From positions 109,377 to 173,376 of the forward strand of contig CAVYCR010000003.1 of the NCBI GenBank assembly GCA_963767115.1: a stretch of 64,000 bases of DNA. Reading direction: 5' to 3'. The notes under the pieces are model-generated. The model ran no database searches and had not been told where the DNA came from. It worked only from the letters and a program-made list of their open reading frames with translations. This document shows, in pieces, positions 36,539 through 54,762 of the stretch. Each line of letters begins with the position of its first letter. Position 1 is the stretch's first letter. Made by a program: the position numbers and the translations under genes. The stretch is from Candidatus Kaiserbacteria bacterium. Lineage in GTDB: Bacteria > Patescibacteriota > Minisyncoccia > Phycocordibacterales > UBA2100.

Positions 36539-36700
36539 TTCCTCCGACGCCAGCGACCAATCCTATTGTGCCATCACTACAACAAGCTCAAGGAGTCTTT
36601 CGTTTCTTGAGCTCGATCTTCTAGACTATCCCCATAACACCTCAGTATTCGAATACGATTTCTGAATATGCTGATACAATACTCGTAATCGCATTCTTTC

Positions 36701-39700
36701 ATGAAATCAAGATTCAATCTCCTGATCATAACAGGAACGCTCTTACTCTCTTTTCCACTCATTGCTTCAGCAACCTCCTACCTCCCCGGCCAAACACTCA
36801 ACCCAAGCTGTACGCCGACTGACCCTACGTGTGTCGTCGTCCCCAATACTACAAGCAGCAACTTTACTGCAACATCAAGTACCGCAACATCTACCTTTGC
36901 CGGCAACGTCACGGTCTCGGGCAACGTCTCGGTTGGCGGCCTCTCCGGTATTCTCCGTGCCGTTGAAGGAGTGATCACGAGTACGCTGGTCAATCTCTCT
37001 TCTGATGTTACCGGCGTGCTTGGCATCATCAATGGCGGTACCGGCATATCGTCTGCTCCGGGGTATGGACAGGTGCTGGTGGGCAATGCGCTTGGCGGTT
37101 ATACGCTCATGTCGACGTCGTCACTGGGTATTGCGGGTGCATCGAGTCAGTGGACGATTGGCGGTTCGAACATCTATTTCAATACGGGCAATATCGGTAT
37201 CGGGACCACCAGTCCTTCGGGATTGCTAACACTCGATTCTTCGTCGGCGACCGGTACCATCCTGCGTATGAGCAACACCTCGGTAGGCGGTCACGTCTAC
37301 GACTTCCTGGAGACTGGCTCAGCCAATACCGGCGGTGCAGGACGGCTCGACTTCTTTGACAACACGGTAGGCGCGGCGCGGCTATCGATTGCTGCCAATG
37401 GGAATGTGGGGGTGGGCACCACGAGCCCGTTTACAAATTTTGGTGTTTCCGGAAGCGGATATTTCGGGGGGAATCTTGCGGCCGCCACTCTATCAGTACC
37501 AGGTCTCACAACACTTGGAAATGCAACAACAACGAACCTTGAGGTTACTGGAGGTCTAAGTTTTACGGGCAATCAGGTTTATTCTGGCTCTGGTACTTCG
37601 AGTCCAGCAAATTCTTTTATATTCATGAAGGGTTCTCTCTCTGGAGTTGCAGCCCCAGCGGGGGACGGGATCATAAGCCCTTTTCATGTTTTTATTCCCG
37701 CAGATACAGTCAATACTAATGGAAACGGAAGCCTCATTGGATTCTCAATTGAAGAAGCTGCGAGTACTGGCCATGCGGGTGCACGCATCGCGTCACAGAG
37801 TTATTTGGCTGTTGTCGGAACACCTTCAACTACACCCGGTTCGGGTGGTTATGTAGGAGAAGCAGCCTTAACAAGAATCAGTGCAAACTTGGATGGAACC
37901 GCCGGCGCCTACTCCAATTACAAAGGCTCTACCTTTGGTGCCAACTCGGACATTTATCTCACTTCAGGTGCGACGTTTCTTGGTTTGGTAAATGCGGAAG
38001 AGTTTGATGTAACGATTCCATCCGGAGATTCAACTGCCGATAAATTTGGCATATCCATCGTGAAAGGTTCAAATGACGCAGTGCGCGGGACGTACGATGA
38101 CTCAGCGATAAGTATCAATGACCAGGATAATGCAAATACCCAAGGGTGGCATTACGGGCTTTCCTTCGGCTCCTATGCACATCAATGGGCATTTGCCACC
38201 GACAGCACGCTCATCATGGCTCAGACACGGCAGACAGGAGCCTCGAGCCCAGACGTAGCATTGAATGGTATCGACTTTCGAAACGTAACATTTGGAGGGT
38301 TGGCGTTTGCTTCTCCAGGATTCTCTGTTGATCCCTCGGGGAACATTGTTGGAAACGATTTTTATGCTTCTTCGACGAATTTTATGACGTTCGGCGGCAT
38401 CGGCGCAGGTACTAGAATCATTGCAGACGGAACCTCCACAAATATCACTTCTTCTCCCAGCGCGACTGCCTTTGGGTACGACGCTCTCGAATACGCATCA
38501 TCTACATCAGGTAATGGAAGCAGTGCTTTCGGATTCGAAGCGCTTCTCGGCAGTTTCTCTCTTGGCAACACGGGAAACAATACAGCTCTGGGGTATAAAT
38601 CGCTAATTGTCGACAGTAGTGGTGCTTCCAATACCGGGGTTGGTGCCAATACATTGCTTGGGAATACGACAGGGTCTTCAAACGTAGCCTTAGGGCAAGG
38701 TGCTCTTTTTGCAAATACTTCGGGCAATCAAAATATCTCGATTGGGCAGTCTTCACTCGTTGGCAACACATCAGGGTCAGGTAATATAGCCATGGGTACG
38801 GGCGCGCTTCGTGGTCTCGCGGGGAGCAGTGCAAACGACAACATTGGAATTGGTACAAATACTGCTACAACATCGACTTCTGGCTCCAACAACATCGCCA
38901 TCGGTTATGATATCGGCCTGCCCAACCTCACCGGCTCGAACCAACTAGATATTGGCAATTTGATTTTCGGCACCGGTGTAAGCGGCCAGGGTATAGCCGT
39001 TTCAGGTAATGTAGGTATTGGCACTTCGTCCCCGCAGGCTACGCTCGAAGTGTGGGGACCAGATACTGCATCTACAAGTGCCTTTACGGTCGCCAATAGC
39101 GCATCGACGACCGAATTCACGGTCTATGATACCGGCAATGCAGTCCTTGCTGGTAGCCTCACACAGAACTCGGATCAAAGGCTCAAGACCAACATCTCGG
39201 ATCTTGATGGCTCGAGCTCGCTTGCAGAGATTAATGCCTTAAACCCCGTCACTTTCAATTGGATCGACCCCGAGAAGAGTTCCGTACCGCAATTTGGCTT
39301 CATCGCGCAGCAGGTAGAGAACGTCTTCCCGAACCTTGTTGCGACGACTTCCCCGACCGCGCTCACACCTGACGGCACGCTCTCATTGAATTACATTGAT
39401 CTCATTTCGCCGATCATTGCGGCGATACAGCAGTTGGATAGAGATCTGACAACGCTCAGCTCAACAGTTGATGGTTTTGCGCAGTCGATAACATCTATGG
39501 TCGGCAATTTCGGCCAAGTTAATACGCAAGAATTGTGCGTTCAAGGCACCTGTGTAACCGGCGCCCAGCTCAAAGCGCTTCTCGCATCCGCTCATCAGTC
39601 TGCGAGTTCATCCGGTTCATCGCCTGGTGATCCGACCGATGCCACTGACACTTCGGATTCGACAAACTCACCGCAATCGCCTGTCATTCAGGTCAATGGC

Positions 39701-40000
39701 GCCAATCCTGCCACGATCGAGGTCGGCGCCATCTACAACGATCTCGGTGCGACCATCACCGGTCCGCAGGCTGATCTCAATCTGGGAATCGCGACCTATC
39801 TCAACGGTGTGGCGATGAATCCGATACAGCTCGACACCACGCAAACGGCGACTGATACGATCGATTACGTCGTGACTGATCAAAGTGGATTGACGAGCAC
39901 CTCGACGCGCACGGTCGTCATACAGGCGCCGATCACTCCGGTTGCGACCGCATCTACCACGACCGCCACGAGCTCATCAGCGACAAGCACTACGCCATAG
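36701..40000 (+). CDS. giant secreted fibre protein 1 (1099 aa): signal peptide, N-terminal module shared with the 41003 gene, collar repeats, C-terminal peptidase-S74 intramolecular-chaperone domain plus Ig-like (DUF5011-type) domain
   Basis: Signal peptide MKSRFNLLIITGTLLLSFPLIASA. Collar repeats read NTxxGxxALxxNTxGxxN.. The sequence ...LTQNSDQRLKTNISDLDGSSSLAEINALNPVTFNWIDPEKSSVPQFGFIAQQVENVFPNLV matches the S74 auto-chaperone, with the predicted S|D autocleavage site at 39172/39173. The C-terminal VIQVNGANPATIEVGAIYNDLGATITGP...DTIDYVVTDQSGLTSTSTRTVVIQ is Ig-like. Confidence 0.8.
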   Translation: MKSRFNLLIITGTLLLSFPLIASATSYLPGQTLNPSCTPTDPTCVVVPNTTSSNFTATSSTATSTFAGNVTVSGNVSVGGLSGILRAVEGVITSTLVNLSSDVTGVLGIINGGTGISSAPGYGQVLVGNALGGYTLMSTSSLGIAGASSQWTIGGSNIYFNTGNIGIGTTSPSGLLTLDSSSATGTILRMSNTSVGGHVYDFLETGSANTGGAGRLDFFDNTVGAARLSIAANGNVGVGTTSPFTNFGVSGSGYFGGNLAAATLSVPGLTTLGNATTTNLEVTGGLSFTGNQVYSGSGTSSPANSFIFMKGSLSGVAAPAGDGIISPFHVFIPADTVNTNGNGSLIGFSIEEAASTGHAGARIASQSYLAVVGTPSTTPGSGGYVGEAALTRISANLDGTAGAYSNYKGSTFGANSDIYLTSGATFLGLVNAEEFDVTIPSGDSTADKFGISIVKGSNDAVRGTYDDSAISINDQDNANTQGWHYGLSFGSYAHQWAFATDSTLIMAQTRQTGASSPDVALNGIDFRNVTFGGLAFASPGFSVDPSGNIVGNDFYASSTNFMTFGGIGAGTRIIADGTSTNITSSPSATAFGYDALEYASSTSGNGSSAFGFEALLGSFSLGNTGNNTALGYKSLIVDSSGASNTGVGANTLLGNTTGSSNVALGQGALFANTSGNQNISIGQSSLVGNTSGSGNIAMGTGALRGLAGSSANDNIGIGTNTATTSTSGSNNIAIGYDIGLPNLTGSNQLDIGNLIFGTGVSGQGIAVSGNVGIGTSSPQATLEVWGPDTASTSAFTVANSASTTEFTVYDTGNAVLAGSLTQNSDQRLKTNISDLDGSSSLAEINALNPVTFNWIDPEKSSVPQFGFIAQQVENVFPNLVATTSPTALTPDGTLSLNYIDLISPIIAAIQQLDRDLTTLSSTVDGFAQSITSMVGNFGQVNTQELCVQGTCVTGAQLKALLASAHQSASSSGSSPGDPTDATDTSDSTNSPQSPVIQVNGANPATIEVGAIYNDLGATITGPQADLNLGIATYLNGVAMNPIQLDTTQTATDTIDYVVTDQSGLTSTSTRTVVIQAPITPVATASTTTATSSSATSTTP

Positions 40001-40013
40001 TATAATCTTTCCT

Positions 40014-40925
40014 ATGTATCAACGCACCGCCGCGATGCTTGCCCTCGGACTTTCCCTCTTCGCCATCACCACATCCGTGGCTTTCGCATCCACCGGCACC
40101 ATTGTTTCACCCGATCAATACGCATGGGATGACAACGGCGGGTATGTGAATTGGCTTGCAGTCGGCGGCAATGTCACTGTCACCGATACCGGACTCACCG
40201 GATATATCTGGTCTGCAGGATTCGGCTGGATCAACCTCTCACCGACCGACGGCGGCGTCACCAACGTGGGTGGAGTTCTCGGCGGCTATGCATGGGGTAC
40301 CAATACCGGCTGGATCAATTTCACCGGGGTGACGATCGACAGTAATGGCCTCTTTCATGGTCACACTGTCGCGCAATCCACCTTCGGCACGATGACGTTT
40401 GACTGTACCTACTGCGATGTTGTCACTTCGTGGACAGGATCTTTTGTGGCGCCGCCGACTACTCCTACACCATCACCATCTCCTATCACTGGGGCCAACG
40501 GCATGCCGGCGCAAAGCGGCACGCTTTCATACGGCTACCAAGCGACAACTACAATTACTGGTAGTGCGTCGACACAAGTAGCTACAACTACCATCACAGC
40601 ACAAACATCGACTAACGTATCGCCATCATTGCGACCAACGACCCCGCCACCATCCGTTGAGCCGACGTCCGCGCCGCCAAAGGCTTCAGCATATGTATCA
40701 CAACATATTTCAAATCAGCACGTGGTGACTGCAGTAGTTTCTCAAGCAAACATGCCGACAGTCGGCCCCTCGACAAACGGAGGCGCTCCGACGCCAGCGA
40801 CCAATACCATCGAGCCATCTCCACAGCACGCTCCGGCGCAATCAACAACGCCGCTTCCTCCTACGTGCTCACTATTCACCTGCTGGATTCAGGGACTTTT
40901 TGATTTCTTGAAGTCGATTTTTTGA
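40014..40925 (+). CDS. secreted repeat protein (GYxWSxxxGWINF/L repeats, Pro/Thr-rich C-terminus)
   Basis: Signal peptide MYQRTAAMLALGLSLFAITTSVAFA. The repeated units are GYIWSAGFGWINL and GYAWGTNTGWINF. It lies between the two giant genes. Confidence 0.55.
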   Translation: MYQRTAAMLALGLSLFAITTSVAFASTGTIVSPDQYAWDDNGGYVNWLAVGGNVTVTDTGLTGYIWSAGFGWINLSPTDGGVTNVGGVLGGYAWGTNTGWINFTGVTIDSNGLFHGHTVAQSTFGTMTFDCTYCDVVTSWTGSFVAPPTTPTPSPSPITGANGMPAQSGTLSYGYQATTTITGSASTQVATTTITAQTSTNVSPSLRPTTPPPSVEPTSAPPKASAYVSQHISNQHVVTAVVSQANMPTVGPSTNGGAPTPATNTIEPSPQHAPAQSTTPLPPTCSLFTCWIQGLFDFLKSIF

Positions 40926-41002
40926 GTAATACACATAATCTTTTCAGCATTTAAATAGTGGCCTTGAATTTCTTGCTACAATGCAGGAACGTTAAATATT
41001 GC

Positions 41003-44000
41003 ATGAAATCCAGGTTATCAGTTATTGTCGGATTTGCTCTCTTACTTGCAGCTCCATTCGCCGCTTCAGCAACCTCCTATTTGCCAGGTCAAACCCTCAA
41101 CCCAAGCTGTACACCGACTGATCCTACGTGTATCGTCGTTCCCAACACGACGAGTAGCAGCTTCACGGCGACGTCTTCTTCGGCGACATCGACGTTTGCC
41201 GGCAGCGTCACTGTCTCAGGTAATGTAGCTATCGGTGGTCTCAGCGGCATTCTCCGTGCTGTTGCTGGTGTGATCACAAACACGCTCGTCAATCTCAGCT
41301 CAGACGTGACAGGTGTACTGAGCATCATCAACGGTGGCACCGGCATATCATCCGCTCCGAGTTACGGCCAAGTCCTCGTCGGCAACGGGAGTGGTGGATA
41401 CACGCTGACGTCGACATCGTCCTTGGGAGTGGCGGCGTCGGGTGCAGTATGGGGCAGCATTGTGGGATCGATTGCTAGTCAGGCGGATTTGCAGAGTGCG
41501 CTTGGTGCGAAGCTCGGACTCGCTGCCTGGTACGCAACCACTACCGACGCCTTAGCACAAGGCTCAACCAACAAATATTTTGCCAATTCACTCGCGCAAG
41601 CGGCTATTTCGGTCTCCGGTTCCCCACTCACCTATACATCCGGTGTGATCGGCATCAACCAAGCAAGCGCCAGTCAGAACGGTTACCTCGCTTCTACTGA
41701 CTGGTCAAATTTCAACGGGAAACTCGCATCGTCATCACTCTCCGCCTCGTATCCGCTTGCGTACAACTCTTCAACGGGAGTCTTTAGTCTCGGCTTCGGT
41801 ACAACGACTGCCAACACTTTCTCTTCTCTCCAAACGTTCAAAGGTGGGGCTTCTACCTCTGCACTCACCCTTGGCACGGGCGCAGGCATTTTGCAAACGA
41901 ACGCTGCTGGCGTGGTATCAGCGGGCACTGTGAGCCTGACTTCTCAAGTAGCAGGCACGCTCGCTCAAAGCAACGGTGGCACCGGATTCAATTCATATAC
42001 TGCCGGTGCCATCCTCTATGCAGACGGCTCGGGCAATCTTCAGGAGCTTCCTGCCGGCAGTAACGGCCAAGTCCTCAAGGTCGCGGCAGGATTACCGGGC
42101 TGGGGAGTTGACCTTACCTCCGGTGGCGGGGGTAGTAATGACGGCATCTTTGCAACGACGAGCAGCGGTGTCGTGTATCAACTCAACACCTCAAATCCCG
42201 TCGTCATCGGTTCGAATTCCACCTCGACTGCCAACAGCATCTTTGAAGTCTCAGGGCAACAATATATTTCAACCAAGCTCGGCATCGCGACCACTACTCC
42301 AAGTACCAATCTCTCGGTTGCAGGCTCAGGCTACTTTACCGGAGGCCTCGGCATCGGTACCTTGAATACTGCTCCGGGTTCACTTGTCGTCACGGGCAAC
42401 ACCACGCTTGGCAGCGCAACCTCCACCAATTTCTTCTCGACAGTTGCCAACTTCACCAGCGCTATCGCTACGACTTTTAATGCTTCGCTTGCTAATATCG
42501 CTGGTTTGAGCGTGACGAATTCGACTACTACTAACGCAACGACGACCAATCTCTACGCGCAAAGCGCATCGATCGGATCATTGGGTCTCTCTTCTGCACT
42601 TGGTATCGGGAGTGGGGGCACAGGACTTGCTTCTGGACCCGCCTATGGCCAAGTACTGCTCGGCAATGGAAGTGGCGGATACACGCTGACGTCGACATCA
42701 TCACTTGGAATAACGAGCGGCGTTTGGGGCAATATCACCGGCACACTTGCCAATCAGACCGATTTGCAAAGTGCACTCAATCTCAAATTGTCATCGTCAT
42801 CACTCTCCGCCACCTATCCGCTCTCATACAATAATAGTAGCGGTATTTTCAGTATTGGCTTCGGCACCACGACGAGTAACTCTTGGGCTGGAACGCAAAC
42901 ATTTAACAATATTTCTGCAACGAATGCGACGACGAGTAATTTTGGCATCACTGGTATTACCAATGGCGTTCTTGCGACGAATGGAAACGGTTCGGTGATT
43001 GCGACAACAAGTATTGGTGCCAACTACATCAACGGCATCCTGGGTACGATCAATGGCACAAACTTTTCACGCGGCGGATCAATTACACTGGGAGGAGCAT
43101 CAACGACACTGCTTTCTGATGCCAACACTTTTTCGGGTAGTAATATATTCTCAGCACTTAGCACATTCACAACCGGAATTCTTTCGAATGCCTCATCGAC
43201 ATTCACTTCGATCTTGAACGTGAATACAGTTAATCTCTCCAACGCACTCGGTATCGGGAGTGGCGGCACAGGACTTGCCTCCGCCCCTACGTACGGTCAA
43301 TTATTGCTCGGCAACGGAAGTGGCGGCTATACCCTCACATCGACCTCATCGCTCGGCATTGCAAACGGTTTCCAGTGGGCAACGAATGGTTCAGCTATTT
43401 CATACAGTACGGGTAATGTGGGTATTGGTACGAGTTCTCCCGGCGCAGCATTGTCAGTAAGTGGCAATACAGCACTTGCCGGCACCCTTTCGATCCAGAC
43501 GTCAGGCACCTCAACACTTACCGACCTTCAGGGTACGTCACAGTATGTCTTCGGCTCATGGGCTCCGCGTTTATGGGAACTTGCAGATGGTACGTCGCTC
43601 AATCCAGTAACCACCACTGGTGCGACCTTCAAGATTTCCCGCACCGAAGCAGTGGCGAGCAGCACCTGTAACAACAACAATGTTGATAATGAATGCAACG
43701 CGGCATTGCTTGTCGAATCTAATGCAAACGCGATCGCCGCATCTTCCTCCCAACAAACCGACGCAATTTTTGCCGGGGCAAAAGGACAACCGATCGGAAC
43801 TGACGTCGTAGGACTTTCAGCTATTGGCGACGTAGTGGGCGCTGGCACCGGTATCGGTACAGGCGCGTATCTTGAGGGCCGCCGCGATACCGCGACAGGC
43901 CTTGCAAAAGGCCTCGAGGTGCGCGTCACCAACATCACCAGCAAAGCGGGCACCTACTATAACGCTGGCGAATCGGACACCGAAGGCATCTGGGTCACCG

Positions 44001-47000: not shown

Positions 47001-50000
47001 TCGCGCAAGTTTCATCGCCCGCTTCAGTGATCTGGCTTACCCAAGCCGCAACAGCAAGTGGTACGAACGTGACGTTGAGCTTTACCAACGGCACCTACAC
47101 GAGCGGTGGTAACGTCTATATAGATACGACGATCCGCAATGGAACTGCCTACACAATTACTCATAGTGAGGGGCTGGAATGCAACGACTGCTCCGATATC
47201 GGCCACCAAATAGGCTTCTATCTCGGCGCGGGAGCGAGCGGCATCAATATTATTAATGGAGTTTCTGACTATGATGGAAATCTCCAAGATCCTACCGCGA
47301 TCAACCTTGAGGTCACCAGCACCTCGACTGCTTCGGATTGGAATGGTGGTTGGATGGATTCAAAGAATACTTCAATCTATAACGCTAACGCGAGTGGCCC
47401 TGCGACAACGGTGTCGGGGGTAAATATTTCTACCGAATCAGGCGGTACCACGGCTGACGTCGAAAGCGGTCGCCTCATTATATCCAACTCGCAGCAGTGG
47501 AACGCGAGCGATATCTTGGTGGGCTCAGGGACCGGCAGCCTCACCATGAATGGTGACGACATGGTCCACACGACTATGTTGCCGGCTAATTCCGCAACGC
47601 TCGCGGAACTGTCGATCGATGGTAGTACGCAGCTTAAGTCCAACTCAGTTGACCAGGGTCTTGCCTCGTTCTCTTCGCCTCTCAACGGCAATACGGGAGC
47701 AGGCACCGGTGCGCTGACCCTCTATCTCGGCACCACCACGACCGGCTTCGAGACCGCTTTCGGCAACAACGCACTCCAAAACGCCACGTCATCCTCCGAT
47801 GACGTCGCCGTCGGCTATGGTGCGCTCACCGGAAGTGCCACGATCTCGAGTGTTGGCTCCAATACCGCAATCGGCTGGAACACGCTCAACCTCAATACCT
47901 CGGGACACGGCAATGCTGCGCTCGGCGCAGGTGCCTTGTATCGTAACACCTCTGGCAGTTTCAACATCGGCATTGGTAATTCCGCACTCGCTTTTAACAC
48001 GACCGGCTCATCCAATGTCGGCATCGGCGCATCTGCTTTGTGGTTCAACACGGGATCTCAAAACACGGCGATCGGCTATCAAGCCGGCGAAGGCGTCAAT
48101 GGCAGTTCTTCCGGCGGCAGCAATACATTCTTCGGATACAATACCGGCTTCGGCGACACGACCGGCGCTTCAAACCTCTATATCGGCAACAACGTCGCTT
48201 CAACCAGCGCGACTGGCTCTTTCAACGTAGCGCTCGGCTACGATATCGCCCTGCCAAGCGTGAACGGCTCCAATCAACTCGACATCGGCAATCTCCTCTT
48301 CGGCACCAATTTGACGCAAGGCACTACGGTCTCGACGGGTAATTTCGGCATCGGTACTTCGAGTCCCGGATCGATCTTCTCTGTAGGAGGTGTGGGCAAC
48401 TGGACCACGGGAACGTCGACCATGTACAGCTCTGGCGGCATCAACCTCTCTGGCGGCTGTTTCGCGGTAAACGGTACGTGCATTACCACCAGTAGTGGTG
48501 GCGGTGGAAGTTCTGCGTCGACGACATTACTCACAGATAACGACACCTTCTCCGGCGCCGAATTCTTCACCAAACCCATAAATACCTCAGGCACGACAGG
48601 AGGATACGACATCGACGGAAACCTCATCCTGCAAGCTTCTTCAACACTCGCCTCGACGCTCGTCGGTCAGAATGCAGGTTCGTCACTCACTACGTCATTC
48701 GGCAACGTCGCTCTCGGCTACGGTGCACTTCAGTACGCCACCTCGAGTCCTGACAACGTTGCAATTGGCTACAACGCACTGAACGCATTCACCTTCGCCA
48801 TTCCTGCGAATCCCGGCGCAGTGGGAGATATGACCGCGGTCGGGTATAACGCACTCGCGAGTTCCACCAACGGCTACATCAACACCGCAATCGGCTACGA
48901 ATCGATGTATGAGAGCACATCAACGGTCGAGAACACCTGCGTGGGATGGACTTCTTGCGGAGACCTGCAAAATCAGTTTTTGTCGACCGCCGGCAGCTAC
49001 AACGTTGGCGTTGGTGCTGGCGCTTTGTGGCACGATACCACTGGGGACAACAACGTGTCGGTTGGTTCTGACAACATGCGCAATACCGTCGGCGCGCAGG
49101 GCGACGTCGCCGTCGGCGAGGGATCGATCAGGAATGGCGTGCCGAATGCTGACATTGGTATCGGCGTCTATGCGCTGCGCGGCCAGGGTTGGTACGATGG
49201 CAACGCCGCAACTTCTACCGAGGCCGACGACATTGCCATCGGTACCTATGCAATGTCGACGACGAGTCTGACCACAGCACAGTACGACACGGCGGTAGGT
49301 CACTACTCCTCGCAGAACTTGATTAATGGTAACTACAACGTCGCATTCGGTGCCTTTACCTTGCAGAATGCCACCTCGTCCAACAACAACGTCGCCATCG
49401 GCTACAACGCACTCTTGGGAAGCAGTACAGTCTCGAGCGTCGGCAACAACACAGCTATCGGATACAACTCACTCGAAAATGATGCTTCCGGTGCAAGCAA
49501 TACAGCCCTTGGTTATTCATCTCTCGCCAGCAACACTTCCGGCGGCAACAACGTGGGTCTCGGCTATGGAGCGCTGACTGCGAATCTTGCAGGCAACAAC
49601 AACGTCGCGATCGGTCTCAATTCGCTTGCTAACGACAATACTTCAGGAAGTACCGGTATCGGCGCTTCATCACTCTTATACAGTACCGGTGCGGGCAACA
49701 CTGCAGTGGGCTTCCTCGCAGGTCAGGGTGTAAACGGTAGTTCTTCAGGCACTTTCAATTCACTTTTCGGCTACCAGAGCGGTTTTGGACTTACAACCGG
49801 CGCTGCAAACATTCTCCTCGGTACTAATGCTGCATCGACCACGGCATCAGGCTCATTCAATATCGCGCTCGGTTATGACGTCGCACTGCCAAGTCAGAAC
49901 GGCTCCAACCAGCTCGACATCGGCAACTTGATCTACGGCACCGGCATCAATGGCCAAGGGAGCAATGTCTCGACCGGCAATATCGGTATTGGCACCACGA

Positions 50001-50941
50001 CCTCATATTCACGTCTTGAAGTCTGGGGCCCTGATTTCTCAGCTTCTACGACCGCTTTTCTCGTCTCAAATGCCGCTTCGACAACCGAGTTCGCCGTCCT
50101 CGACAACGGCAATGCGACGCTTGCCGGCAACCTGATTCAAAACTCTGACCAACGCCTCAAGACCAACATCACCGACCTCGATGGTTCAAGTTCGCTCGCC
50201 GAAATCAATGCGCTGAACCCGGTAACTTTCAACTGGATCGATCCGGCCAAAAGCTCAGTGCCGCAGTTCGGCTTCATTGCCCAGCAGGTGGAAGGAGTGT
50301 TCCCCAACCTAGTCTCCACAACCTCACCAACTGCCCTTACACCAGATGGCACGCTTTCACTCAACTACATTGATCTCGTATCTCCTATTGTGGCAGCCAT
50401 TCAAGAACTCTCGCGGGAGATTGCTTCAATCGAGAATACTGTTTCCGGATTTGCGACGATATTTCATACCAACGAGCTTTGCGTTGGCTCCACATGCGTG
50501 ACACCCGCACAGTTCGAGGCGATGGTTGCTGCGGCAAATCAGACAAACCAATCAGGAGAATCCTCCCAGAGTTCAAGTAGTTCGGACAATTCCTCAAATG
50601 CAACCGACACTCCGCCCGTCATAGAAATCAACGGCGCCAACCCTGCAACTATTCAAGTCGGCGCGACATACAACGACCTCGGTGCCACCATCATCGGACC
50701 AAGTGCTGATACGAACCTCGATATTACGACCTATCTCAACGGTATCGCTCTGTCCCCCATCACGATTGATACTTCAGCTGCTGCTACAGACACGATCGAC
50801 TACGTCGTGACTGATCAGAACGGCCTTACGAGTACATCCACACGCACCGTGATCATACAATCATTGAATACGATCGACGCTTCTACTTCAGTAGCCGACG
50901 ACGCAACAAGTACATCGGATACTTCCTCGACCAATCAATAA
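41003..50941 (+). CDS. giant secreted fibre protein 2 (about 3312 aa): signal peptide, N-terminal module paralogous to 36701, GGYTLTSTSSLG-type repeats, YadA-head/tail-fibre-like collar repeats, internal pectate-lyase-fold (tailspike-like) domain, C-terminal peptidase-S74 chaperone domain plus Ig-like domain
   Basis: Start chosen at ATG 41003 (MKSRLSVIVGFALLLAAPFAASA); the listed GTG at 40958 is also possible. The pectate-lyase-3-like segment is VIYADQYGTHHDGITDDTTAIQNALNAASSEGGGTVFIGPYRYLI (about 46090-46700). The S74 segment is ...LIQNSDQRLKTNITDLDGSSSLAEINALNPVTFNWIDPAKSSVPQFGFIAQQVEGVFPNLV, with predicted cleavage at 50146/50147. The C-terminal Ig module is near-identical to that of protein 1. 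Confidence 0.8.
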   Translation: MKSRLSVIVGFALLLAAPFAASATSYLPGQTLNPSCTPTDPTCIVVPNTTSSSFTATSSSATSTFAGSVTVSGNVAIGGLSGILRAVAGVITNTLVNLSSDVTGVLSIINGGTGISSAPSYGQVLVGNGSGGYTLTSTSSLGVAASGAVWGSIVGSIASQADLQSALGAKLGLAAWYATTTDALAQGSTNKYFANSLAQAAISVSGSPLTYTSGVIGINQASASQNGYLASTDWSNFNGKLASSSLSASYPLAYNSSTGVFSLGFGTTTANTFSSLQTFKGGASTSALTLGTGAGILQTNAAGVVSAGTVSLTSQVAGTLAQSNGGTGFNSYTAGAILYADGSGNLQELPAGSNGQVLKVAAGLPGWGVDLTSGGGGSNDGIFATTSSGVVYQLNTSNPVVIGSNSTSTANSIFEVSGQQYISTKLGIATTTPSTNLSVAGSGYFTGGLGIGTLNTAPGSLVVTGNTTLGSATSTNFFSTVANFTSAIATTFNASLANIAGLSVTNSTTTNATTTNLYAQSASIGSLGLSSALGIGSGGTGLASGPAYGQVLLGNGSGGYTLTSTSSLGITSGVWGNITGTLANQTDLQSALNLKLSSSSLSATYPLSYNNSSGIFSIGFGTTTSNSWAGTQTFNNISATNATTSNFGITGITNGVLATNGNGSVIATTSIGANYINGILGTINGTNFSRGGSITLGGASTTLLSDANTFSGSNIFSALSTFTTGILSNASSTFTSILNVNTVNLSNALGIGSGGTGLASAPTYGQLLLGNGSGGYTLTSTSSLGIANGFQWATNGSAISYSTGNVGIGTSSPGAALSVSGNTALAGTLSIQTSGTSTLTDLQGTSQYVFGSWAPRLWELADGTSLNPVTTTGATFKISRTEAVASSTCNNNNVDNECNAALLVESNANAIAASSSQQTDAIFAGAKGQPIGTDVVGLSAIGDVVGAGTGIGTGAYLEGRRDTATGLAKGLEVRVTNITSKAGTYYNAGESDTEGIWVTGNSSNGLPIGAGMSFGAINGSEFLTGIGFTTNSVASSTIRDDSSASTSIQINGNHTNAINIASNGTYALTTGANSGNVGIGTASPGYELTVSTTSGTQAYFGSTGSHNGGIIIDNAAGGFQSVINLLNAGTQIFQIGKQTDNSFFMYDASNTRNFLTYSPTSQNLILNSAAVGNVGIGTTTPGSLLSVGGVANFSTATSTFYSSGGINLTNGCFALNGTCITGGGGSNYWTSSAGTLYNNTGASIGINNASPSYPLDVGGFINTSALTGGFKQGGTTLLYASTTNLSTFVGFNAGANVLTIATSSSLTSGAYNTVLGYQALQNATSSQNVAIGYQALQGNSSSGDSSGNQNVGVGYQSLRYNAGGSDNSALGYIALLNNTSGTLNTALGYQALTGNTGGSNNLAIGPFALDGNQTGVSNVAVGRNAMLNELNGSSNVAVGMGAGDGVASNSFSNNVLLGYYSGFGLSTGGNNILLGYQAASTTATGGNNIALGYNIDLPSANGSNQLDIGNLIYGTGINGTLNTVSTGNIGIGESAPLAKLDIANSSATSSLLLRGGNNQTSSTTNQIVFSYAGTANYESALKTRSNSAGNSGNDIDFYLWNTTDGAASIANNPAFTIDGAGGIAVGQGYAGAGGITPPANGAIIQGNVGIGTTSPSSALSLNGNALFGGNLNVIGNITGNYPFSQYGTGAVAEPIITTVGRVIYADQYGTHHDGITDDTTAIQNALNAASSEGGGTVFIGPYRYLINSANLTIPSQVTLSGEAWPGVPSAGNFGTKPYTLVLNPTYTIIGSDNAGLQDLLILKSGMTSPTSTRSSMNLVASYAGTAITGAGNDFSVQNVTVGGFNTCFYSSGYARMVLNQFFGDCTNGLVADNVHDIGKLHNIEFWSFLSVGFGGAYVVAYPVSNVSNSSGNYDVTIPTNVFQTGDTVWVSGVGGAVGANGKWIATVAGPNDLILQNSAVSPSVVGTTTASSYEVSVATTTALYAGEGVSGTGIPSGDTVAQVSSPASVIWLTQAATASGTNVTLSFTNGTYTSGGNVYIDTTIRNGTAYTITHSEGLECNDCSDIGHQIGFYLGAGASGINIINGVSDYDGNLQDPTAINLEVTSTSTASDWNGGWMDSKNTSIYNANASGPATTVSGVNISTESGGTTADVESGRLIISNSQQWNASDILVGSGTGSLTMNGDDMVHTTMLPANSATLAELSIDGSTQLKSNSVDQGLASFSSPLNGNTGAGTGALTLYLGTTTTGFETAFGNNALQNATSSSDDVAVGYGALTGSATISSVGSNTAIGWNTLNLNTSGHGNAALGAGALYRNTSGSFNIGIGNSALAFNTTGSSNVGIGASALWFNTGSQNTAIGYQAGEGVNGSSSGGSNTFFGYNTGFGDTTGASNLYIGNNVASTSATGSFNVALGYDIALPSVNGSNQLDIGNLLFGTNLTQGTTVSTGNFGIGTSSPGSIFSVGGVGNWTTGTSTMYSSGGINLSGGCFAVNGTCITTSSGGGGSSASTTLLTDNDTFSGAEFFTKPINTSGTTGGYDIDGNLILQASSTLASTLVGQNAGSSLTTSFGNVALGYGALQYATSSPDNVAIGYNALNAFTFAIPANPGAVGDMTAVGYNALASSTNGYINTAIGYESMYESTSTVENTCVGWTSCGDLQNQFLSTAGSYNVGVGAGALWHDTTGDNNVSVGSDNMRNTVGAQGDVAVGEGSIRNGVPNADIGIGVYALRGQGWYDGNAATSTEADDIAIGTYAMSTTSLTTAQYDTAVGHYSSQNLINGNYNVAFGAFTLQNATSSNNNVAIGYNALLGSSTVSSVGNNTAIGYNSLENDASGASNTALGYSSLASNTSGGNNVGLGYGALTANLAGNNNVAIGLNSLANDNTSGSTGIGASSLLYSTGAGNTAVGFLAGQGVNGSSSGTFNSLFGYQSGFGLTTGAANILLGTNAASTTASGSFNIALGYDVALPSQNGSNQLDIGNLIYGTGINGQGSNVSTGNIGIGTTTSYSRLEVWGPDFSASTTAFLVSNAASTTEFAVLDNGNATLAGNLIQNSDQRLKTNITDLDGSSSLAEINALNPVTFNWIDPAKSSVPQFGFIAQQVEGVFPNLVSTTSPTALTPDGTLSLNYIDLVSPIVAAIQELSREIASIENTVSGFATIFHTNELCVGSTCVTPAQFEAMVAAANQTNQSGESSQSSSSSDNSSNATDTPPVIEINGANPATIQVGATYNDLGATIIGPSADTNLDITTYLNGIALSPITIDTSAAATDTIDYVVTDQNGLTSTSTRTVIIQSLNTIDASTSVADDATSTSDTSSTNQ

Positions 50942-50970
50942 AGGTTTAGAAACTGAATCCACTTGTGTCA

Positions 50971-50999
50971 AAAACCACCCTAATAACGGGTGGTTTTTG
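50971..50999. terminator. bidirectional intrinsic terminator between the giant gene and 51029..52234
   Basis: aaaaccaccc-taataac-gggtggttttt forms a GC stem with A-run and T-run flanks. Confidence 0.8.
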
Positions 51000-51028
51000 T
51001 TTGCTAAACAATTTGCTCGGTTGCATTA

Positions 51029-52234
51029 CTATTGTGTGCGACGGCGCATGACGTAGTACGAGCTGCCCAAGACTACAGCTGCAGAGAGCGCGAGTACCAA
51101 GAAGTTCATTGGTGCCTCGCCGCCTGCGCCGGTGTTTGGTGTGCCAGGAGTAGTTACTGTCACTCCGGTGCCGGTCGTACCGGTAGTTGTCGTGGTCGTA
51201 GTGGGTGCAGTGATCATAACCGTACCGGAAGTCGGCTCAACGATGCCCGAGGTTGTAGTCTCTACGATCGGCATAAACGAGCCGCTTGTGCTACCACTTG
51301 CTGTCACTGCTGACGGTACGACAGCGATACCAATCGTGCTACCTACTGAAGCCGCAGAGGACGCATTGCATGTGAGCGCGAGGATATCTGCAGAACCTGC
51401 CGATATAGTAAGCGGCGTGTCGAGCGTGAAGGTGTTGGTGCCGTTTACCGGCGCATTGATGGCGTTGAGTCCTGTGTTGAGCGAGCTTGCGAGACTCGCA
51501 GCCGTATGCAGCGAACAATCCGAAAGATAATTCGAAGCAAGCGACGCATTGCTACTCGTCACCGTGAACGAAAGCGGGATCGAGGAGATGCTCACCGGCT
51601 GGTTGGAATTGGAGGCGTCAAGCGTGACGAGCGCCAATACCGCGTTCTGTGCGCCAGCGCGAACGCTTGCGATCGGCGAGAGCATTACGCCGAGCGCGCT
51701 CGTGCCTGTAGTCGTGCTCGTCGTCGGTGCCATAGCAGACGTAATGACGGGCGTTCCCGCGGTGAATTGATACATTGCGCCCGACGGGCTCGATGAGCTC
51801 ACTGCACAATCGAGATTGAGCGTGACGGATGTGTTGGCAGGGACCGTAAGCGGCGCATTAAGGACGAAGGTGTTGGTCCCGCTTGCGATCGTCGGAATGT
51901 TGGTGCCCGTGTTGAGGGCGGTGCTACTTGCTGTATTCATAAGCTGACAATTGGAGAGGTACGAGGGCACCCCGCCGCTGCTGGTCGAAAACATGAACGG
52001 GATCGACGAGACGGTGTATGTCTCACTGTTGGTACCGGTAAGCGTCACCAACGCCATCGTGCCGGAGGATCCCGCGACAGGCGTGGAAGCGGGTGCTGCG
52101 GTCGAGACATTCACAGTATTGACTGTCTGCGCCGAAGCGGAGCCCGTCATCAACGCCACAGCGAGGAGCATTGCCACCCCCCCTGCAATAACCCCGATAT
52201 TTCTCCCAGTACTTCTGATTGTTCTAGATTTCAT
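51029..52234 (-). CDS. Ser/Thr-rich cell-surface protein with two about 130-aa internal repeats and a C-terminal LPXTG-like (TPNTG) sorting signal
   Basis: Signal peptide MKSRTIRSTGRNIGVIAGGVAMLLAVALMTGSASA. The C-terminus is TPGTPNTGAGGEAPMNFLVLALSAAVVLGSSYYVMRRRTQ, i.e. motif, hydrophobic span, then a basic tail. Confidence 0.55.
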   Translation of the reverse strand: MKSRTIRSTGRNIGVIAGGVAMLLAVALMTGSASAQTVNTVNVSTAAPASTPVAGSSGTMALVTLTGTNSETYTVSSIPFMFSTSSGGVPSYLSNCQLMNTASSTALNTGTNIPTIASGTNTFVLNAPLTVPANTSVTLNLDCAVSSSSPSGAMYQFTAGTPVITSAMAPTTSTTTGTSALGVMLSPIASVRAGAQNAVLALVTLDASNSNQPVSISSIPLSFTVTSSNASLASNYLSDCSLHTAASLASSLNTGLNAINAPVNGTNTFTLDTPLTISAGSADILALTCNASSAASVGSTIGIAVVPSAVTASGSTSGSFMPIVETTTSGIVEPTSGTVMITAPTTTTTTTGTTGTGVTVTTPGTPNTGAGGEAPMNFLVLALSAAVVLGSSYYVMRRRTQ

Positions 52235-52352
52235 ACTGACTGATTAATTAAGACTGCTACTACTAATAGCATCATCTAATACCAAGAGCGATTAAGCCTC
52301 CATGAAGGCGCAGTAGGCACTCATACCTGAGGAGTTTGCTATACTGGCCCCC

Positions 52353-53246
52353 ATGCAAGACAAGCTCGTGATCGGCACTCGCGGAAGCAAGCTCGCGCTC
52401 GCGCAGACGAGACTCGTTCTCGAAGCGATGAGACAGATACTCCCGACGGTCACCATCGAGACCAAAATCATCACCACTACCGGCGACATCAACACCTCGC
52501 CCATCCCGCAGACTACTATCGGCAAGGCATGGTTCACCGCAGAGATCGAGGAAGAGCTCGCCTCCGGGGCGATCGACATCGCCGTACACAGTCTCAAAGA
52601 CGTGCCGCCTGCCGTGAAAGAAGGCACGACAGTGTTGCCGGTCTTGCGCCGCGGCGATCCGCGCGATGTCTTGATCGCAGCCGATGTGCGCAGCTTTTCA
52701 GAGCTCCCGCGCGGCGCACGCATCGGCACTGACAGCGCACGACGCAAGGCGCTCCTTTTTGCGTTACGAAGCGACCTCTCCGTAGAGAGCATCCGCGGCA
52801 ACGTCGACACCCGCCTGCGCAAGATGCATGAGGAAGGCTACGACGCGATCGTGCTCGCGGCCGCGGGCCTTCAACGGCTCGACATGCTGGGACTCGTGAA
52901 CGAATTCTTCCCTATCGAGACTTTCACTCCTGCACCGGGTCAGGGAGTGCTTGCCGTACAGATCAAGAGTGACAACGCGGAATTACTTACAACACTACAG
53001 GCGATCCAGGACCCTGACACCGTCGTCGCCGTTGATGCTGAATTTTCATTCGTGAAGACGCTCGGCGGAGGCTGCAAGAGCCCGGTCGGTGCCTACGCGC
53101 TCCCGCAAGGCGACGCCTTGCGGTTGTATGGCATGGCCGTCGGCTCTTCCGGCACACTCTTCGATACCGAGACGGGCCCGCGCTCCGAAGCCGCACACAT
53201 CGGAAGCACCCTCGGCGAGCGTTTGACCAAGATGATACATGAATAA
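52353..53246 (+). CDS. hemC: hydroxymethylbilane synthase (porphobilinogen deaminase)
   Basis: KLVIGTRGSKLALAQT... matches HemC over its full length. Confidence 0.9.
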   Translation: MQDKLVIGTRGSKLALAQTRLVLEAMRQILPTVTIETKIITTTGDINTSPIPQTTIGKAWFTAEIEEELASGAIDIAVHSLKDVPPAVKEGTTVLPVLRRGDPRDVLIAADVRSFSELPRGARIGTDSARRKALLFALRSDLSVESIRGNVDTRLRKMHEEGYDAIVLAAAGLQRLDMLGLVNEFFPIETFTPAPGQGVLAVQIKSDNAELLTTLQAIQDPDTVVAVDAEFSFVKTLGGGCKSPVGAYALPQGDALRLYGMAVGSSGTLFDTETGPRSEAAHIGSTLGERLTKMIHE

Positions 53247-54638: not shown

Positions 54639-54750
54639 GCGGAAATGACAAAGGTATTTTTTCGTTCTGCGGGACGCATAGCGCCCTCACGCCCCTGCGG
54701 GGCTGCGGGTTCGGTCCTCGAACGAAAAAATACCTTTGTCATTTCCGCTC
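54637..54750. repeat. long perfect palindromic element: 31-bp stems (54637-54667 / 54720-54750), 52-nt loop, directly after the hemQ stop
   Basis: gagcggaaatgacaaaggtattttttcgttc and its exact reverse complement flank the loop. The loop contains the mini-hairpin cccctgcgggg. Confidence 0.85.
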
Positions 54751-54762
54751 TCACGTTCGAGT

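What the first reader, a model, noticed from the sequence alone, without database searches (positions are those of the whole stretch)
36701..52234. Phage-tail-fibre-like giant adhesin locus in a cellular genome: two paralogous secreted giants that end in self-cleaving S74 chaperone domains
Two ORFs of 1099 and about 3312 aa start with Sec signal peptides and share an about 120-aa N-terminal module (ATSYLPGQTLNPSCTPTDPTC[IV]VVPNTTSS...GGYTL). They contain beta-helix/collar-type repeats reminiscent of YadA heads and phage tail fibres (N-x-A-[IL]-G-x-x-[AS]-L...NTSG). Both terminate in an about 110-aa peptidase-S74 intramolecular-chaperone domain (NSDQRLKTNI[ST]DLDGSSSLAEINALNPVTFNWIDP..SSVPQFGFIAQQVE.VFPNLV) followed by a coiled stretch and a DUF5011-like Ig domain. 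In phages this domain folds trimeric tailspikes/fibres and is then auto-excised. Here it is carried by signal-peptide proteins and flanked only by housekeeping genes, a GW-repeat secreted protein and a TPNTG-anchored surface protein. There are no capsid, terminase, tail tube or baseplate genes. This looks like a domesticated, secreted trimeric fibre/adhesin system, possibly glycan-degrading, rather than a prophage remnant.
Basis: partly seen in the sequence, partly recalled or inferred. Interest (0 to 1): 0.8.

Follow-up and report, generated by a model that had tools for sequence, protein, structure and literature searches.

The report
Secreted phage-like fibres of an ultrasmall bacterium
An ultrasmall soil bacterium (Kaiserbacteria-like) carries two exported, phage-tail-fibre-like giant proteins with a self-cleaving folding domain and a conserved small partner protein, a likely cell-surface attachment apparatus similar to one known from the predator Bdellovibrio.

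Summary
ORFs 36701-40000 (1099 aa) and 41003-50941 (3312 aa) have Sec-type signal peptides. They are 79% identical over their first 151 aa. Both end in Peptidase_S74 (E 2e-17 and 2e-16) followed by PF16403 (formerly DUF5011). The Ser-Lys dyad (SDxRxK) is invariant in 20 relatives. The 64-kb window holds no tailed-phage genes. Its ribosome recycling factor points to Candidatus Kaiserbacteria (CPR).

The main interpretation holds: a cellular, secreted fibre rather than a prophage remnant. Three details do not.
- YadA/Hep_Hag fails by HMM.
- The pectate-lyase match is partial and found only in the large protein.
- Cleavage is predicted before the Ser, not at S|D.

New findings:
- The roughly 300-aa C-terminal cassette (S74, coil, Cys pair, Ig) defines a family of more than 100 mosaic proteins. 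They occur in CPR bacteria and soil Alphaproteobacteria. The cassette was not found in phage collections.
- The "GW" gene between the two giants is a conserved partner. All 13 fibres with the N-terminal Cys-loop cap have it within 2 kb, against 1 of 24 fibres without the cap.
- The partner models confidently as an 8-stranded beta-barrel.

The closest known system is the Bdellovibrio MAT fibres, so this is a new variant of a known kind. Function remains inferred.

The parts
36701..40000 (+). Fibre A, 1099 aa. Layout by residue: signal peptide (1-24); Cys-loop cap (about 25-45, C37/C44); shaft unit (about 46-150); knob module flanked by VGIGTxxP motifs (about 150-250); unassigned payload domain (about 234-560); 17-aa N-x-A-x-G repeats ending in GSNQLDIGNL (about 578-760); S74; coil; Cys pair; Ig; S/T-rich tail.
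36773..36835 (+). N-terminal Cys-loop cap of A (SYLPGQTLNPSCTPTDPTC), directly after the predicted signal-peptidase site. The same cap is in B at about 41075-41131.
   Evidence: Invariant Y, P, G, T, P, C, P, D and C in alignment A4. Found only at protein N-termini. Co-occurs with the GW partner gene.
39170..39490 (+). S74 intramolecular-chaperone/autoprotease domain of A. Pfam match covers aa 824-880. Catalytic S824 and K829. Predicted cut at N823|S824. A helical segment extends to about aa 930.
39686..39919 (+). PF16403 Ig-like domain of A (aa 996-1073). It is preceded by the invariant Cys pair C946/C951 and an S/T/D-rich linker.
40014..40925 (+). GW-like partner protein, 303 aa. Layout: signal peptide; a roughly 125-aa domain with three GYxWxxxxGWINF units and FDCxxC, modelled as an 8-stranded beta-barrel; an S/T/P-rich stalk; a C-terminal hydrophobic/amphipathic tail.
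41003..50941 (+). Fibre B, 3312 aa. It has the same signal peptide and Cys-loop cap as A, then three copies of the shaft unit. Three blocks of 17-aa repeats each end in GSNQLDIGNL (at aa 1502, 2422 and 2967). Only the last block is followed by S74 and Ig.
46118..46330 (+). Start of a pectate-lyase-like right-handed beta-helix in B (aa 1706-1776). Matches PF12708 at E 3.4e-8, 34 bits against a cut-off of 27, but only profile positions 5-76 of 213.
50144..50314 (+). S74 domain of B (aa 3048-3104). Catalytic S3048 and K3053. Predicted cut at N3047|S3048.
50621..50857 (+). PF16403 Ig-like domain of B (aa 3207-3285).
51029..52234 (-). Neighbouring surface protein, 401 aa, with a sortase-type C-terminal signal (PGTPNTG, hydrophobic stretch, RRR).
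   Evidence: Sequence. No Pfam or PHROG match. No homologue in 78 related loci.

Best explanation
The locus is a three-gene operon (fibre A, GW partner, fibre B) of a Kaiserbacteria-like CPR bacterium. I propose that it builds cell-surface fibres in the following steps.

1. Both giants are exported by Sec (inferred from their signal peptides).
2. The C-terminal S74 domain trimerises them and nucleates folding of the preceding triple beta-helix. It then cuts itself off before S824 (A) or S3048 (B), using the conserved Ser-Lys dyad. This is inferred from homology to endoNF, T5 pb1, MyRF and Bdellovibrio Bd3182.
3. The roughly 275-aa fragment (S74, coil, Ig) is released. Its unusually high conservation suggests a role beyond transient folding, but that role is unknown.
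4. The mature fibre keeps an N-terminal disulphide-loop cap. I propose that the cap docks onto the beta-barrel of the co-encoded GW protein. That protein has a Pro/Thr-rich stalk and a C-terminal hydrophobic tail, and would hold the fibre at the cell surface. This step rests on the strict co-occurrence of cap and partner gene.
5. The distal and central modules bind or cut surface polysaccharide of another cell. These are an unassigned domain in A and a pectate-lyase-like beta-helix in B. Relatives carry esterases, a sialidase and LysM instead.

For an obligate epibiont lineage, the most likely use is recognising and holding onto the host bacterium. This parallels the way Bdellovibrio uses its MAT fibres on prey.
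For: Architecture and S74:
- Pfam S74 and PF16403 are found in both proteins.
- S45, D46, R48 and K50 of the cassette are invariant in 20 diverse relatives.
- The cassette profile hits solved ICA domains.
- The cleavage chemistry and position come from MyRF and endoNF.
- The VGIGTxxPxxxL motif occurs 3 times in A and 5 times in B. One copy sits about 50 residues before the S74 Ser in A. This resembles the MAT/MyRF capping-loop motif.

Phage-type fibre body:
- The repeat region matches PHROG tail-fibre, tailspike and virion-protein families.

Cellular rather than viral:
- The window carries housekeeping genes and no tailed-phage genes.
- The ribosome recycling factor is 69-78% identical to its closest listed relatives beyond one 88% hit. 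Every named one is from Kaiserbacteria, Paceibacterota or Parcubacteria.
- An IMG/VR scan found only three weak matches, all to the Ig part.
- Of 247 GenBank phage records that match, none covers the cassette beyond S74, and identity is at most about 41%.
- The GW barrel has no viral structural match and no PHROG match.

Partner gene:
- The GW gene lies on the same strand within 2 kb of 13 of 13 Cys-loop fibres, against 1 of 24 other fibres (Fisher p = 4e-9). This count includes four independent metagenome loci fetched as a test.
- A C-terminal hydrophobic tail is conserved across the GW homologues.

Mosaic family with swapped payloads.

Precedent: Bdellovibrio MAT fibres have a signal peptide, a conserved N-terminal domain, a trimeric fibre and swapped tips. 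Thirteen of 21 end in S74 (SDxxxK) with demonstrated autocleavage and surface location.
Against: - Nothing about trimerisation, cleavage, surface display or binding was tested.
- The AF2 model of A 150-580 was unusable (pLDDT 54), so A's payload is unknown.
- B's pectate-lyase match covers only a third of the Pfam model.
- The cap-to-barrel docking rests on co-occurrence alone. The loci are not phylogenetically independent, and the partner could be an assembly factor or co-receptor instead.
- The window protein's C-terminal tail is short and amphipathic, not a textbook transmembrane helix.
- The same family sits on mobile elements in Alphaproteobacteria that are not epibionts. Host attachment therefore cannot be its only use.
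- The CPR assignment rests on one marker protein.
- The window carries a haem operon, which I regard from general knowledge as atypical for CPR. This expectation was not checked with the tools.
Confidence: 0.6

Rival explanations
1. The fibres are exported but not held on the cell. They would be released trimeric depolymerases or esterases that digest environmental or host exopolysaccharide for nutrition or biofilm remodelling. The GW protein would have an unrelated or accessory role.
For: Family payloads are enzymes typical of polysaccharide breakdown: SGNH/GDSL in about 10 of the 120 listed relatives, PF12708 in 7, SASA in 2 and a sialidase in 1. B has a partial PF12708 match. Neither fibre has a recognisable anchor such as a sortase signal or transmembrane segment.
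Against: The N-terminal cap strictly co-occurs with a stalked, tail-anchored barrel protein, which is hard to explain for a free enzyme. A free enzyme would not need a shaft of up to 3,000 residues. The MAT precedent shows surface localisation.
Confidence: 0.15
2. The fibres are contact adhesins of conjugative or mobilisable elements. They would stabilise donor-recipient pairs, filling the role PrgB-type adhesins have in monoderm type IV secretion.
For: In related loci, mostly labelled Alphaproteobacteria, the fibre gene recurs next to other mobile-element genes. These are a TrwB/VirD4-like coupling ATPase (11 loci), Replic_Relax (7) and a primase Zn-ribbon protein (11), plus serine recombinase or resolvase, ArdC and ParA in some. 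A survey of patescibacterial T4SS found no PrgB-like adhesin.
Against: The window has no coupling protein, relaxase or T4SS gene near the locus. tblastn with the element genes of L011 found nothing in the window. In CPR loci the neighbours are housekeeping genes. Mobile elements carry many kinds of cargo, and the same islands hold defence genes.
Confidence: 0.12
3. The genes are ordinary phage tail fibres from a prophage or degraded prophage, and work as virion parts.
For: The repeat region and S74 match phage tail-fibre, tailspike and virion-protein PHROGs. NCBI names relatives 'tail fiber domain-containing protein'. A possible integrated element lies 19 kb upstream at tRNA-Asn. It has ParB and a weak Phage_CRI-like Rep.
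Against: No capsid, portal, terminase, tube, sheath or baseplate gene lies in the 64 kb. Both proteins have Sec signal peptides, which virion fibres assembled in the cytoplasm do not need. The S74-linker-Ig cassette was not found in IMG/VR or GenBank phages. The upstream element looks plasmid- or filamentous-phage-like, not tailed.
Confidence: 0.05

Closest known systems
Bdellovibrio bacteriovorus MAT (mosaic adhesive trimeric) fibres, e.g. Bd3182 (Caulton et al. 2024, PMC10769870)
   Same: Both are cellular rather than viral. Both have a signal peptide followed at once by a conserved N-terminal element thought to sit at the producer's surface. Both have a long fibre of about 1000 aa or more, with tips and modules exchanged among paralogues. 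Both end in S74 with an SDxxxK dyad and carry a VG-x-x-x-P-x-x-x-L-type motif ahead of it. Both come as several paralogues per genome and belong to a bacterium that lives on other bacteria.
   Different: Here S74 is not the end of the protein. It is followed by a conserved Cys pair, a linker and a PF16403 Ig domain. Neither PF16403 nor a partner gene was searched for in the MAT paper, and neither appears in the passages read. The host organism is a monoderm-type CPR bacterium rather than a diderm predator. Homology of the N-terminal elements could not be tested. The supplementary table of MAT-like proteins that I read lists no CPR member.
Phage tailspikes and tail fibres with a C-terminal intramolecular chaperone (K1F endosialidase, T5 pb1, S16 gp37, GA-1 gp12)
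   Same: They share the S74/ICA domain with the same dyad. They share homologous repeat and beta-helix regions (PHROG matches). They carry the same kinds of payload enzyme.
   Different: In the phage collections searched, only the S74 part of the cassette matches. From general knowledge, phage fibres lack signal peptides, are encoded with virion genes, and end with the chaperone. None of these three points holds here.
Myelin regulatory factor (MyRF/MrfA) ICA domain
   Same: It is the best solved-structure match to the cassette (7dc3, E 2e-11). It is the one known case where the S74/ICA domain is internal and followed by further domains.
   Different: MyRF is a eukaryotic ER-membrane transcription factor. 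Its C-terminal part is a membrane anchor, and cleavage releases the N-terminal part. Here there is no transmembrane segment after S74.
Trimeric autotransporter adhesins (YadA, Hia)
   Same: Both have Gly/Asn/Ala-rich short repeats (N-x-A-[ILV]-G). JGI labels some relatives 'trimeric autotransporter adhesin'.
   Different: There is no Hep_Hag, YadA-head or YadA-anchor match even at E <= 1. The repeat period is 17 residues. From general knowledge, YadA heads repeat at about 14, and a CPR cell has no outer membrane for a beta-barrel anchor. Not a member.

Membership tests
[quoted passage not shown] | Sequence match to PF13884 above the curated cut-off | tested here: met
   A: 63.7 bits, E 1.9e-17. 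B: 60.4 bits, E 2.1e-16. Cut-off is 22 bits.
[quoted passage not shown] | Catalytic Ser-Lys dyad spaced S-x4-K (S911/K916 in endoNF, S587/K592 in MyRF) | tested here: met
   SDQRLK at A 824-829 and B 3048-3053. S, D, R and K are invariant in 20 relatives.
[quoted passage not shown] | Homology to solved ICA structures, including the C-terminal helix that forms the trimeric coiled coil | tested here: met
   Profile A1 against PDB: 7dc3 at 1.8e-11, 8jov at 3e-10, 6f45 at 8e-10, 3gud at 0.019. The alignments run through the helical segment. This is sequence-level evidence only; no model was made.
[quoted passage not shown] | Trimer-dependent autocleavage N-terminal to the Ser | not testable with these tools
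   Needs expression of wild type against S824A and K829A.
MAT fibres (Bdellovibrio type) | Signal peptide followed directly by a conserved N-terminal domain shared by all paralogues | tested here: met
   A and B are 79% identical over residues 1-151. The cap is conserved in 27 of 124 family proteins. The signal peptide was judged by eye.
MAT fibres (Bdellovibrio type) | N-terminal domain homologous to the roughly 130-aa beta-rich MAT domain | not testable with these tools
   No MAT N-domain sequence or structure was available. The AFDB library was offline. PDB holds no such domain.
MAT fibres (Bdellovibrio type) | Mosaic architecture: modules and tips swapped among relatives | tested here: met
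   The same C-terminal cassette is combined with GDSL, PF12708, LysM, SASA, BNR, Kelch or LVIVD middles. N, middle and C modules are shared independently.
MAT fibres (Bdellovibrio type) | Trimeric fibre on the producer's surface that acts on another bacterium | not testable with these tools
   Inference only.
Phage tail fibre (virion component) | Encoded within a phage or prophage alongside virion genes | tested here: not met
   No structural phage family was found in the 64 kb. Pfam covered the ORFs of at least 150 aa. PHROGs was run on ten proteins only. The cassette was not found in IMG/VR or INPHARED.
Phage tail fibre (virion component) | Sequence homology to phage fibre or spike families | tested here: met
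   phrog_1980 at 6e-22, phrog_23837 at 2e-23 (A) and 2e-56 (B), phrog_4636 at 4e-39, phrog_6002 at 8e-51.
Trimeric autotransporter adhesin (YadA-like) | Hep_Hag or YadA head repeats and a YadA_anchor beta-barrel | tested here: not met
   No such Pfam family at E <= 0.01 on the whole proteins, or at E <= 1 on segments.
Pectate-lyase-like beta-helix (PF12708) | Match to the Pfam model above its cut-off | tested here: inconclusive
   B 1706-1776: 34 bits against a cut-off of 27, E 3.4e-8, but only profile positions 5-76 of 213, and only when the segment is scanned alone. No match in A.
PF16403 Bact_surface_Ig-like (DUF5011) | Match above the curated cut-off | tested here: met
   A: 29.5 bits. B: 35.3 bits. 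Cut-off is 27.

The most novel reading that the evidence does not exclude
The fibre plus GW-barrel pair may be a host-recognition apparatus of CPR epibionts that also travels between CPR bacteria and soil Alphaproteobacteria. The vehicle would be small integrative elements of monoderm conjugation type. Shared fibre cassettes could then mark physical CPR-host partnerships, for example Kaiserbacteria with Bradyrhizobium or Xanthobacteraceae.

The evidence:
- Two Bradyrhizobium isolate assemblies carry a fibre with the same signal peptide and Cys-loop cap, next to a GW gene. That GW gene is 61-69% identical to the window's.
- In one of these assemblies the pair lies between a relaxase/primase module and a serine recombinase.
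- A neighbour-joining tree of the cassette interleaves CPR and alphaproteobacterial sequences.
Probability: 0.2. Interest if true: 0.85.

Novelty: new variant of a known kind. Interest (0 to 1): 0.6.

Why it matters
According to the abstracts retrieved, how CPR/Patescibacteria find and hold their hosts is largely unknown beyond type IV pili. That same search is the only basis here for the pili point; none of those papers was opened on this question. A survey of patescibacterial T4SS found no adhesins.

This locus gives a concrete, testable candidate: a two-component fibre system that takes up about 14 kb of a small genome. It has a clear biochemical handle (S824A/K829A autocleavage), a predicted docking pair (Cys-loop cap and GW barrel), and exchangeable enzyme or lectin modules that could set host range.

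It also extends the S74 'phage fibre in a cell' theme from predators to epibionts. It defines a conserved S74-Ig cassette that was not found in the phage collections searched. It points to gene flow between CPR bacteria and soil Alphaproteobacteria.

Tried and rejected
- AF2 of A residues 150-580 with a 22-row alignment gave pLDDT 53.7 and pTM 0.29. I did not fold-search it. A's payload stays unassigned, probably because the domain is an intertwined trimer.
- The AFDB50 fold library was unavailable. The planned test of the N-terminal element against Bdellovibrio MAT models could not be run.
- NCBIfam gave no match for any of the four locus proteins.
- Single-sequence PDB searches were nearly empty. 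Only the cassette profile worked.
- The promoter and terminator scan of 36400-52400 found fewer sites than shuffled sequence and was uninformative.
- The PLSDB plasmid search found only distant S74-only matches.
- The TPNTG protein as a system component was rejected. It has no homologue at any of 78 related loci.
- YadA/TAA membership was rejected.
- The prophage reading was rejected for this window.
- The source genome was not among the GTDB species representatives; the best match was 68% identical. The organism was therefore inferred from one marker.
- One look-up (P0015) was not on record.

Full report
**1. What is there**

The region holds four ORFs:
- Fibre A: 36701-40000 +, 1099 aa.
- A small 'GW' gene: ATG at 40014, ends 40925 +, 303 aa. 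This is the start called on an independent Logan assembly of the same locus.
- Fibre B: ATG at 41003, ends 50941 +, 3312 aa. This sequence is on record in NCBI and ENA on a 237-kb contig.
- A convergent gene at 51029-52234 - (401 aa). It ends in PGTPNTG, a hydrophobic stretch and RRR.

The gaps are 13 nt (A to GW) and 77 nt (GW to B), so the three + strand genes look like one operon. A and B are rich in Ser, Thr, Gly and Asn (about 13, 12, 14 and 7-10%). They are poor in charged residues, and their cysteines always occur in close pairs.

**2. Checking the observation**

Both giants begin with an n-h-c signal peptide ending in ASA|TS (judged by eye). A 1-151 is 79% identical to B 1-150, and A 578-1076 is 59% identical to B 2769-3287. 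Pfam finds Peptidase_S74 and PF16403 (formerly DUF5011) in both, well above the cut-offs.

A profile of the last 300 residues, built from 20 diverse relatives, has invariant S, D, R and K in SDxRxK. It matches solved ICA domains: MyRF 7dc3 (2e-11), phage fibre 8jov (3e-10), S16 gp37 6f45 (8e-10) and GA-1 3gud.

The N-x-A-[ILV]-G repeats have a 17-residue period. Each block ends in GSNQLDIGNL, once in A and three times in B. B therefore looks like three fibre units joined head to tail, with only the last keeping S74.

Hep_Hag/YadA is not detected even at E <= 1. PF12708 (pectate-lyase-like) matches only B 1706-1776, covers the first third of the model, and appears only when the segment is scanned alone. 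PHROGs match the repeat region plus S74 to phage tail-fibre, tailspike and virion-protein families, with E from 2e-23 down to 2e-56. The phage likeness is therefore real and goes beyond S74.

**3. Context and organism**

Pfam scans of the ORFs of at least 150 aa across all 64 kb show cellular genes:
- frr, holB, mreB, def, fmt and tRNA-Asn.
- Several two-component system genes.
- ABC exporters, uppS and an SDR.
- A hemC-hemD-chdC-hemE-hemH operon.

There is no capsid, portal, terminase, tube, sheath or baseplate family. A lower-GC stretch next to tRNA-Asn (about 7-18 kb) carries ParB and a weak Phage_CRI-like Rep. It may be an integrated plasmid-like element. It is not a tailed phage and lies 19 kb from the fibres.

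The ribosome recycling factor has one unnamed relative at 88% identity. The other listed relatives are 69-78% identical. Every named one is from Candidatus Kaiserbacteria, Paceibacterota or Parcubacteria. The host is therefore most likely a Kaiserbacteria-like CPR bacterium. This rests on one marker only.

**4. The family**

A search with A found 457 proteins at E <= 1e-5. Nearly all end in PF13884 plus PF16403. The C-terminal cassette of about 300 aa consists of a neck, S74, a helix, an invariant Cys pair, a linker and an Ig domain. It is mostly 45-77% identical across more than 100 of them. Some more distant members are only 27-44% identical, but all are recovered at E <= 1e-5.

The middles differ. 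They include SGNH/GDSL esterases (about 10 of the 120 listed), PF12708 beta-helices (7), LysM (3), SASA (2), a BNR sialidase, Kelch and LVIVD. N-terminal, middle and C-terminal modules are shared independently of each other. NCBI calls relatives 'tail fiber domain-containing protein'.

A scan of one genome per species found 78 loci:
- CPR groups: Adlerbacteria, Kaiserbacteria, Paceibacterota, Saccharibacteria and Minisyncoccia.
- Soil Alphaproteobacteria: two Bradyrhizobium isolates, Xanthobacteraceae, Roseiarcus, Pseudolabrys and a 4.04-Mb contig.

The cassette as a whole was not found in phage collections. An IMG/VR scan gave three weak Ig-only matches. A tblastn against 50,697 GenBank phages matched only the S74 part, at up to about 41% identity, in 247 records. 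Plasmids gave the same picture.

**5. The N-terminal 'module' is two things**

A profile of A 24-160 hit 1675 representative proteins (455 at E <= 1e-10). Positions 25-145 form a generic shaft repeat that occurs up to 45 times in giants of up to 5777 aa.

Only the first 20 or so residues are specific: Y-x-P-G-[QA]-T-L-[ND]-P-x-C-x-P-x-D-x-x-C. They are always found right after a signal peptide. Other family members have signal peptides followed by a different, helical N-terminus.

**6.

tblastn of all the window's neighbouring genes against the related loci found one recurrent hit, the GW protein, in 9 loci. I then fetched independent metagenome loci for fibres with and without the Cys-loop cap and searched them with a GW HMM.

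Over all evaluable loci, 13 of 13 Cys-loop fibres have a GW gene within 2 kb on the same strand. Only 1 of 24 other fibres does, and that one shares its locus with a Cys-loop fibre. Fisher p = 3.9e-9, although the loci are not phylogenetically independent.

GW homologues (144 found, none with a Pfam family) share one plan:
- A signal peptide.
- A roughly 125-aa domain with three GYxWxxxxGWINF units and FDCxxC.
- A long Ser/Thr/Pro stalk, sometimes with an Ig-like domain.
- A C-terminal hydrophobic tail.

**7. Mobility**

In Bradyrhizobium sp. LTSP885 the fibre has the same signal peptide and cap (SYQPGQTLNPTCPPSD). Its GW gene is 69% identical to the window's. Both lie between a TraG/D-like protein, Replic_Relax and a primase on one side and a large serine recombinase on the other. 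The locus GC is 0.56. From my own knowledge this is low for Bradyrhizobium, so an island or a contaminant cannot be told apart here.

Across the loci, a TrwB-like coupling ATPase recurs in 11, the primase in 11 and Replic_Relax in 7. Most of these loci are labelled alphaproteobacterial. Fibres without the cap sit in islands with ArdC, resolvase, ParA, toxin-antitoxin pairs, SMODS/SLATT, a reverse transcriptase and GmrSD.

In CPR loci the neighbours are housekeeping genes, Laminin_G_3 giants and, next to GW in six loci, a LytR_C protein. A neighbour-joining tree of the cassette interleaves CPR and alphaproteobacterial sequences. It has no support values. Taxon labels are those of the records, and some MAG labels may be wrong.

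**8. Mechanism**

Shown by sequence and statistics:
- An operon of two exported mosaic proteins.
- An intact S74 dyad.
- A cassette that was not found in the phage collections searched.
- Strict linkage of the Cys-loop cap to a stalked barrel protein.

Inferred from characterised homologues:
- The S74 domain trimerises and folds the preceding triple beta-helix.
- It then cuts N-terminal to the Ser (N823|S824 in A, N3047|S3048 in B).
- This releases a fragment of about 275 aa containing S74, the coil and the Ig domain.

Proposed:
- The cap docks on the GW barrel, which tethers the fibre to the cell.
- The middle and distal modules bind or cut surface glycans of another cell.
- For an epibiont lineage, the likely target is the host bacterium.

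MyRF shows that an ICA domain can be internal. Why this released fragment is the most conserved part of the protein is unexplained.

**9. Comparison with known systems**

The closest known system is the Bdellovibrio MAT fibre family. It has a signal peptide, a conserved N-terminal domain, a trimeric fibre and swapped tips. Thirteen of 21 members end in S74 (SDxxxK) with proven autocleavage. The fibres are surface located and act on prey.

The supplementary table of MAT-like proteins in other lineages lists predators and Omnitrophica but no CPR. Full-text searches found no paper on S74 proteins in Patescibacteria. A T4SS survey reports that no adhesins were detected there.

Differences here are the post-S74 Cys pair and Ig domain, the GW partner, the monoderm-type host and the mobile-element spread. 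Homology of the N-terminal elements could not be tested because AFDB was offline.

**10. Verdict**

The YadA, pectate-lyase (for A) and S|D details are not. This is a new variant of a known kind: MAT-like S74 fibres, now in CPR bacteria and with a conserved partner protein. Function is inferred, not shown.

Noticed in passing
window 52353-56662 (+), possibly to 57710: A compact hemC-hemD-chdC(hemQ)-hemE-hemH operon, the coproporphyrin-dependent haem route, in what looks like a CPR genome. From general knowledge such genomes usually lack haem synthesis. The next ORF (56541-57710, 389 aa) has no Pfam match and overlaps hemH.
   Followed up: no
window 6885-18100: tRNA-Asn (6885-6958) is followed by a lower-GC stretch (0.48-0.52). 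It holds a DnaJ-domain protein, ParB (13027-14016 -), a weak Phage_CRI-like Rep (14433-15545 -) and a Trans_reg_C protein matching phrog_731. A 23-nt partial copy of the tRNA 3' end lies at 10683-10705, and repeats of 139 and 45 nt lie at 9954/14035 and 10099/14179. This may be one or two integrated plasmid-like or filamentous-phage-like elements.
   Followed up: partly
window 10753-11451 (+): The ORF contains four near-identical 162-nt (54-aa) tandem repeats (copies from 10805; 94-100% identical) and a weak HYDIN/VesB Ig-like match.
   Followed up: no
window 2689-3718 (-): mreB appears split into two overlapping ORFs (2689-3405 matches MreB profile positions 96-327; 3263-3718 lies upstream). 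This could be a frameshift, a pseudogene or an assembly error.
   Followed up: no
window 26147-28243 (+): Another surface protein, 698 aa, with Big_9, He_PIG and PF16403-like Ig domains and two C-terminal PG_binding_1 domains. Its PG_binding part recurs near fibre genes in five related loci (L003, L006, L010, L022, L041).
   Followed up: partly
window 59547-60431 (-): A peptidase A4 (eqolisin-type glutamic peptidase) homologue. From general knowledge this family is uncommon in bacteria. A 47% identical copy lies near a fibre gene in a Paceibacterota MAG (L031 13686-14438).
   Followed up: no
L011 (Bradyrhizobium sp. LTSP885, NZ_JYMT01000011.1) 1-20837: The whole 20.8-kb stretch has GC 0.52-0.59, which from my own knowledge is low for Bradyrhizobium. 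It holds two identical-anticodon tRNA-Arg(TCG) genes (16158, 19936), Ku, MgtC and a serine recombinase. It is either a foreign island or non-Bradyrhizobium DNA in the assembly.
   Followed up: partly
L018 (record labelled uncultured Alphaproteobacteria MFD06085, 1.09-Mb contig) 6646-10825: It carries the CPR-style LytR_C, GW and Cys-loop fibre arrangement at GC 0.55 on a contig of CPR-genome size. The taxon label of this MAG may be wrong.
   Followed up: no
L053, L060, L061, L035 and other CPR loci: S74-bearing giants of 2,700-3,540 aa and separate Laminin_G_3 giants (about 1,320 aa, in 10 loci) cluster near gapA, rpe and tkt. CPR genomes seem to keep several kinds of giant surface protein at a conserved chromosomal site.
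   Followed up: no
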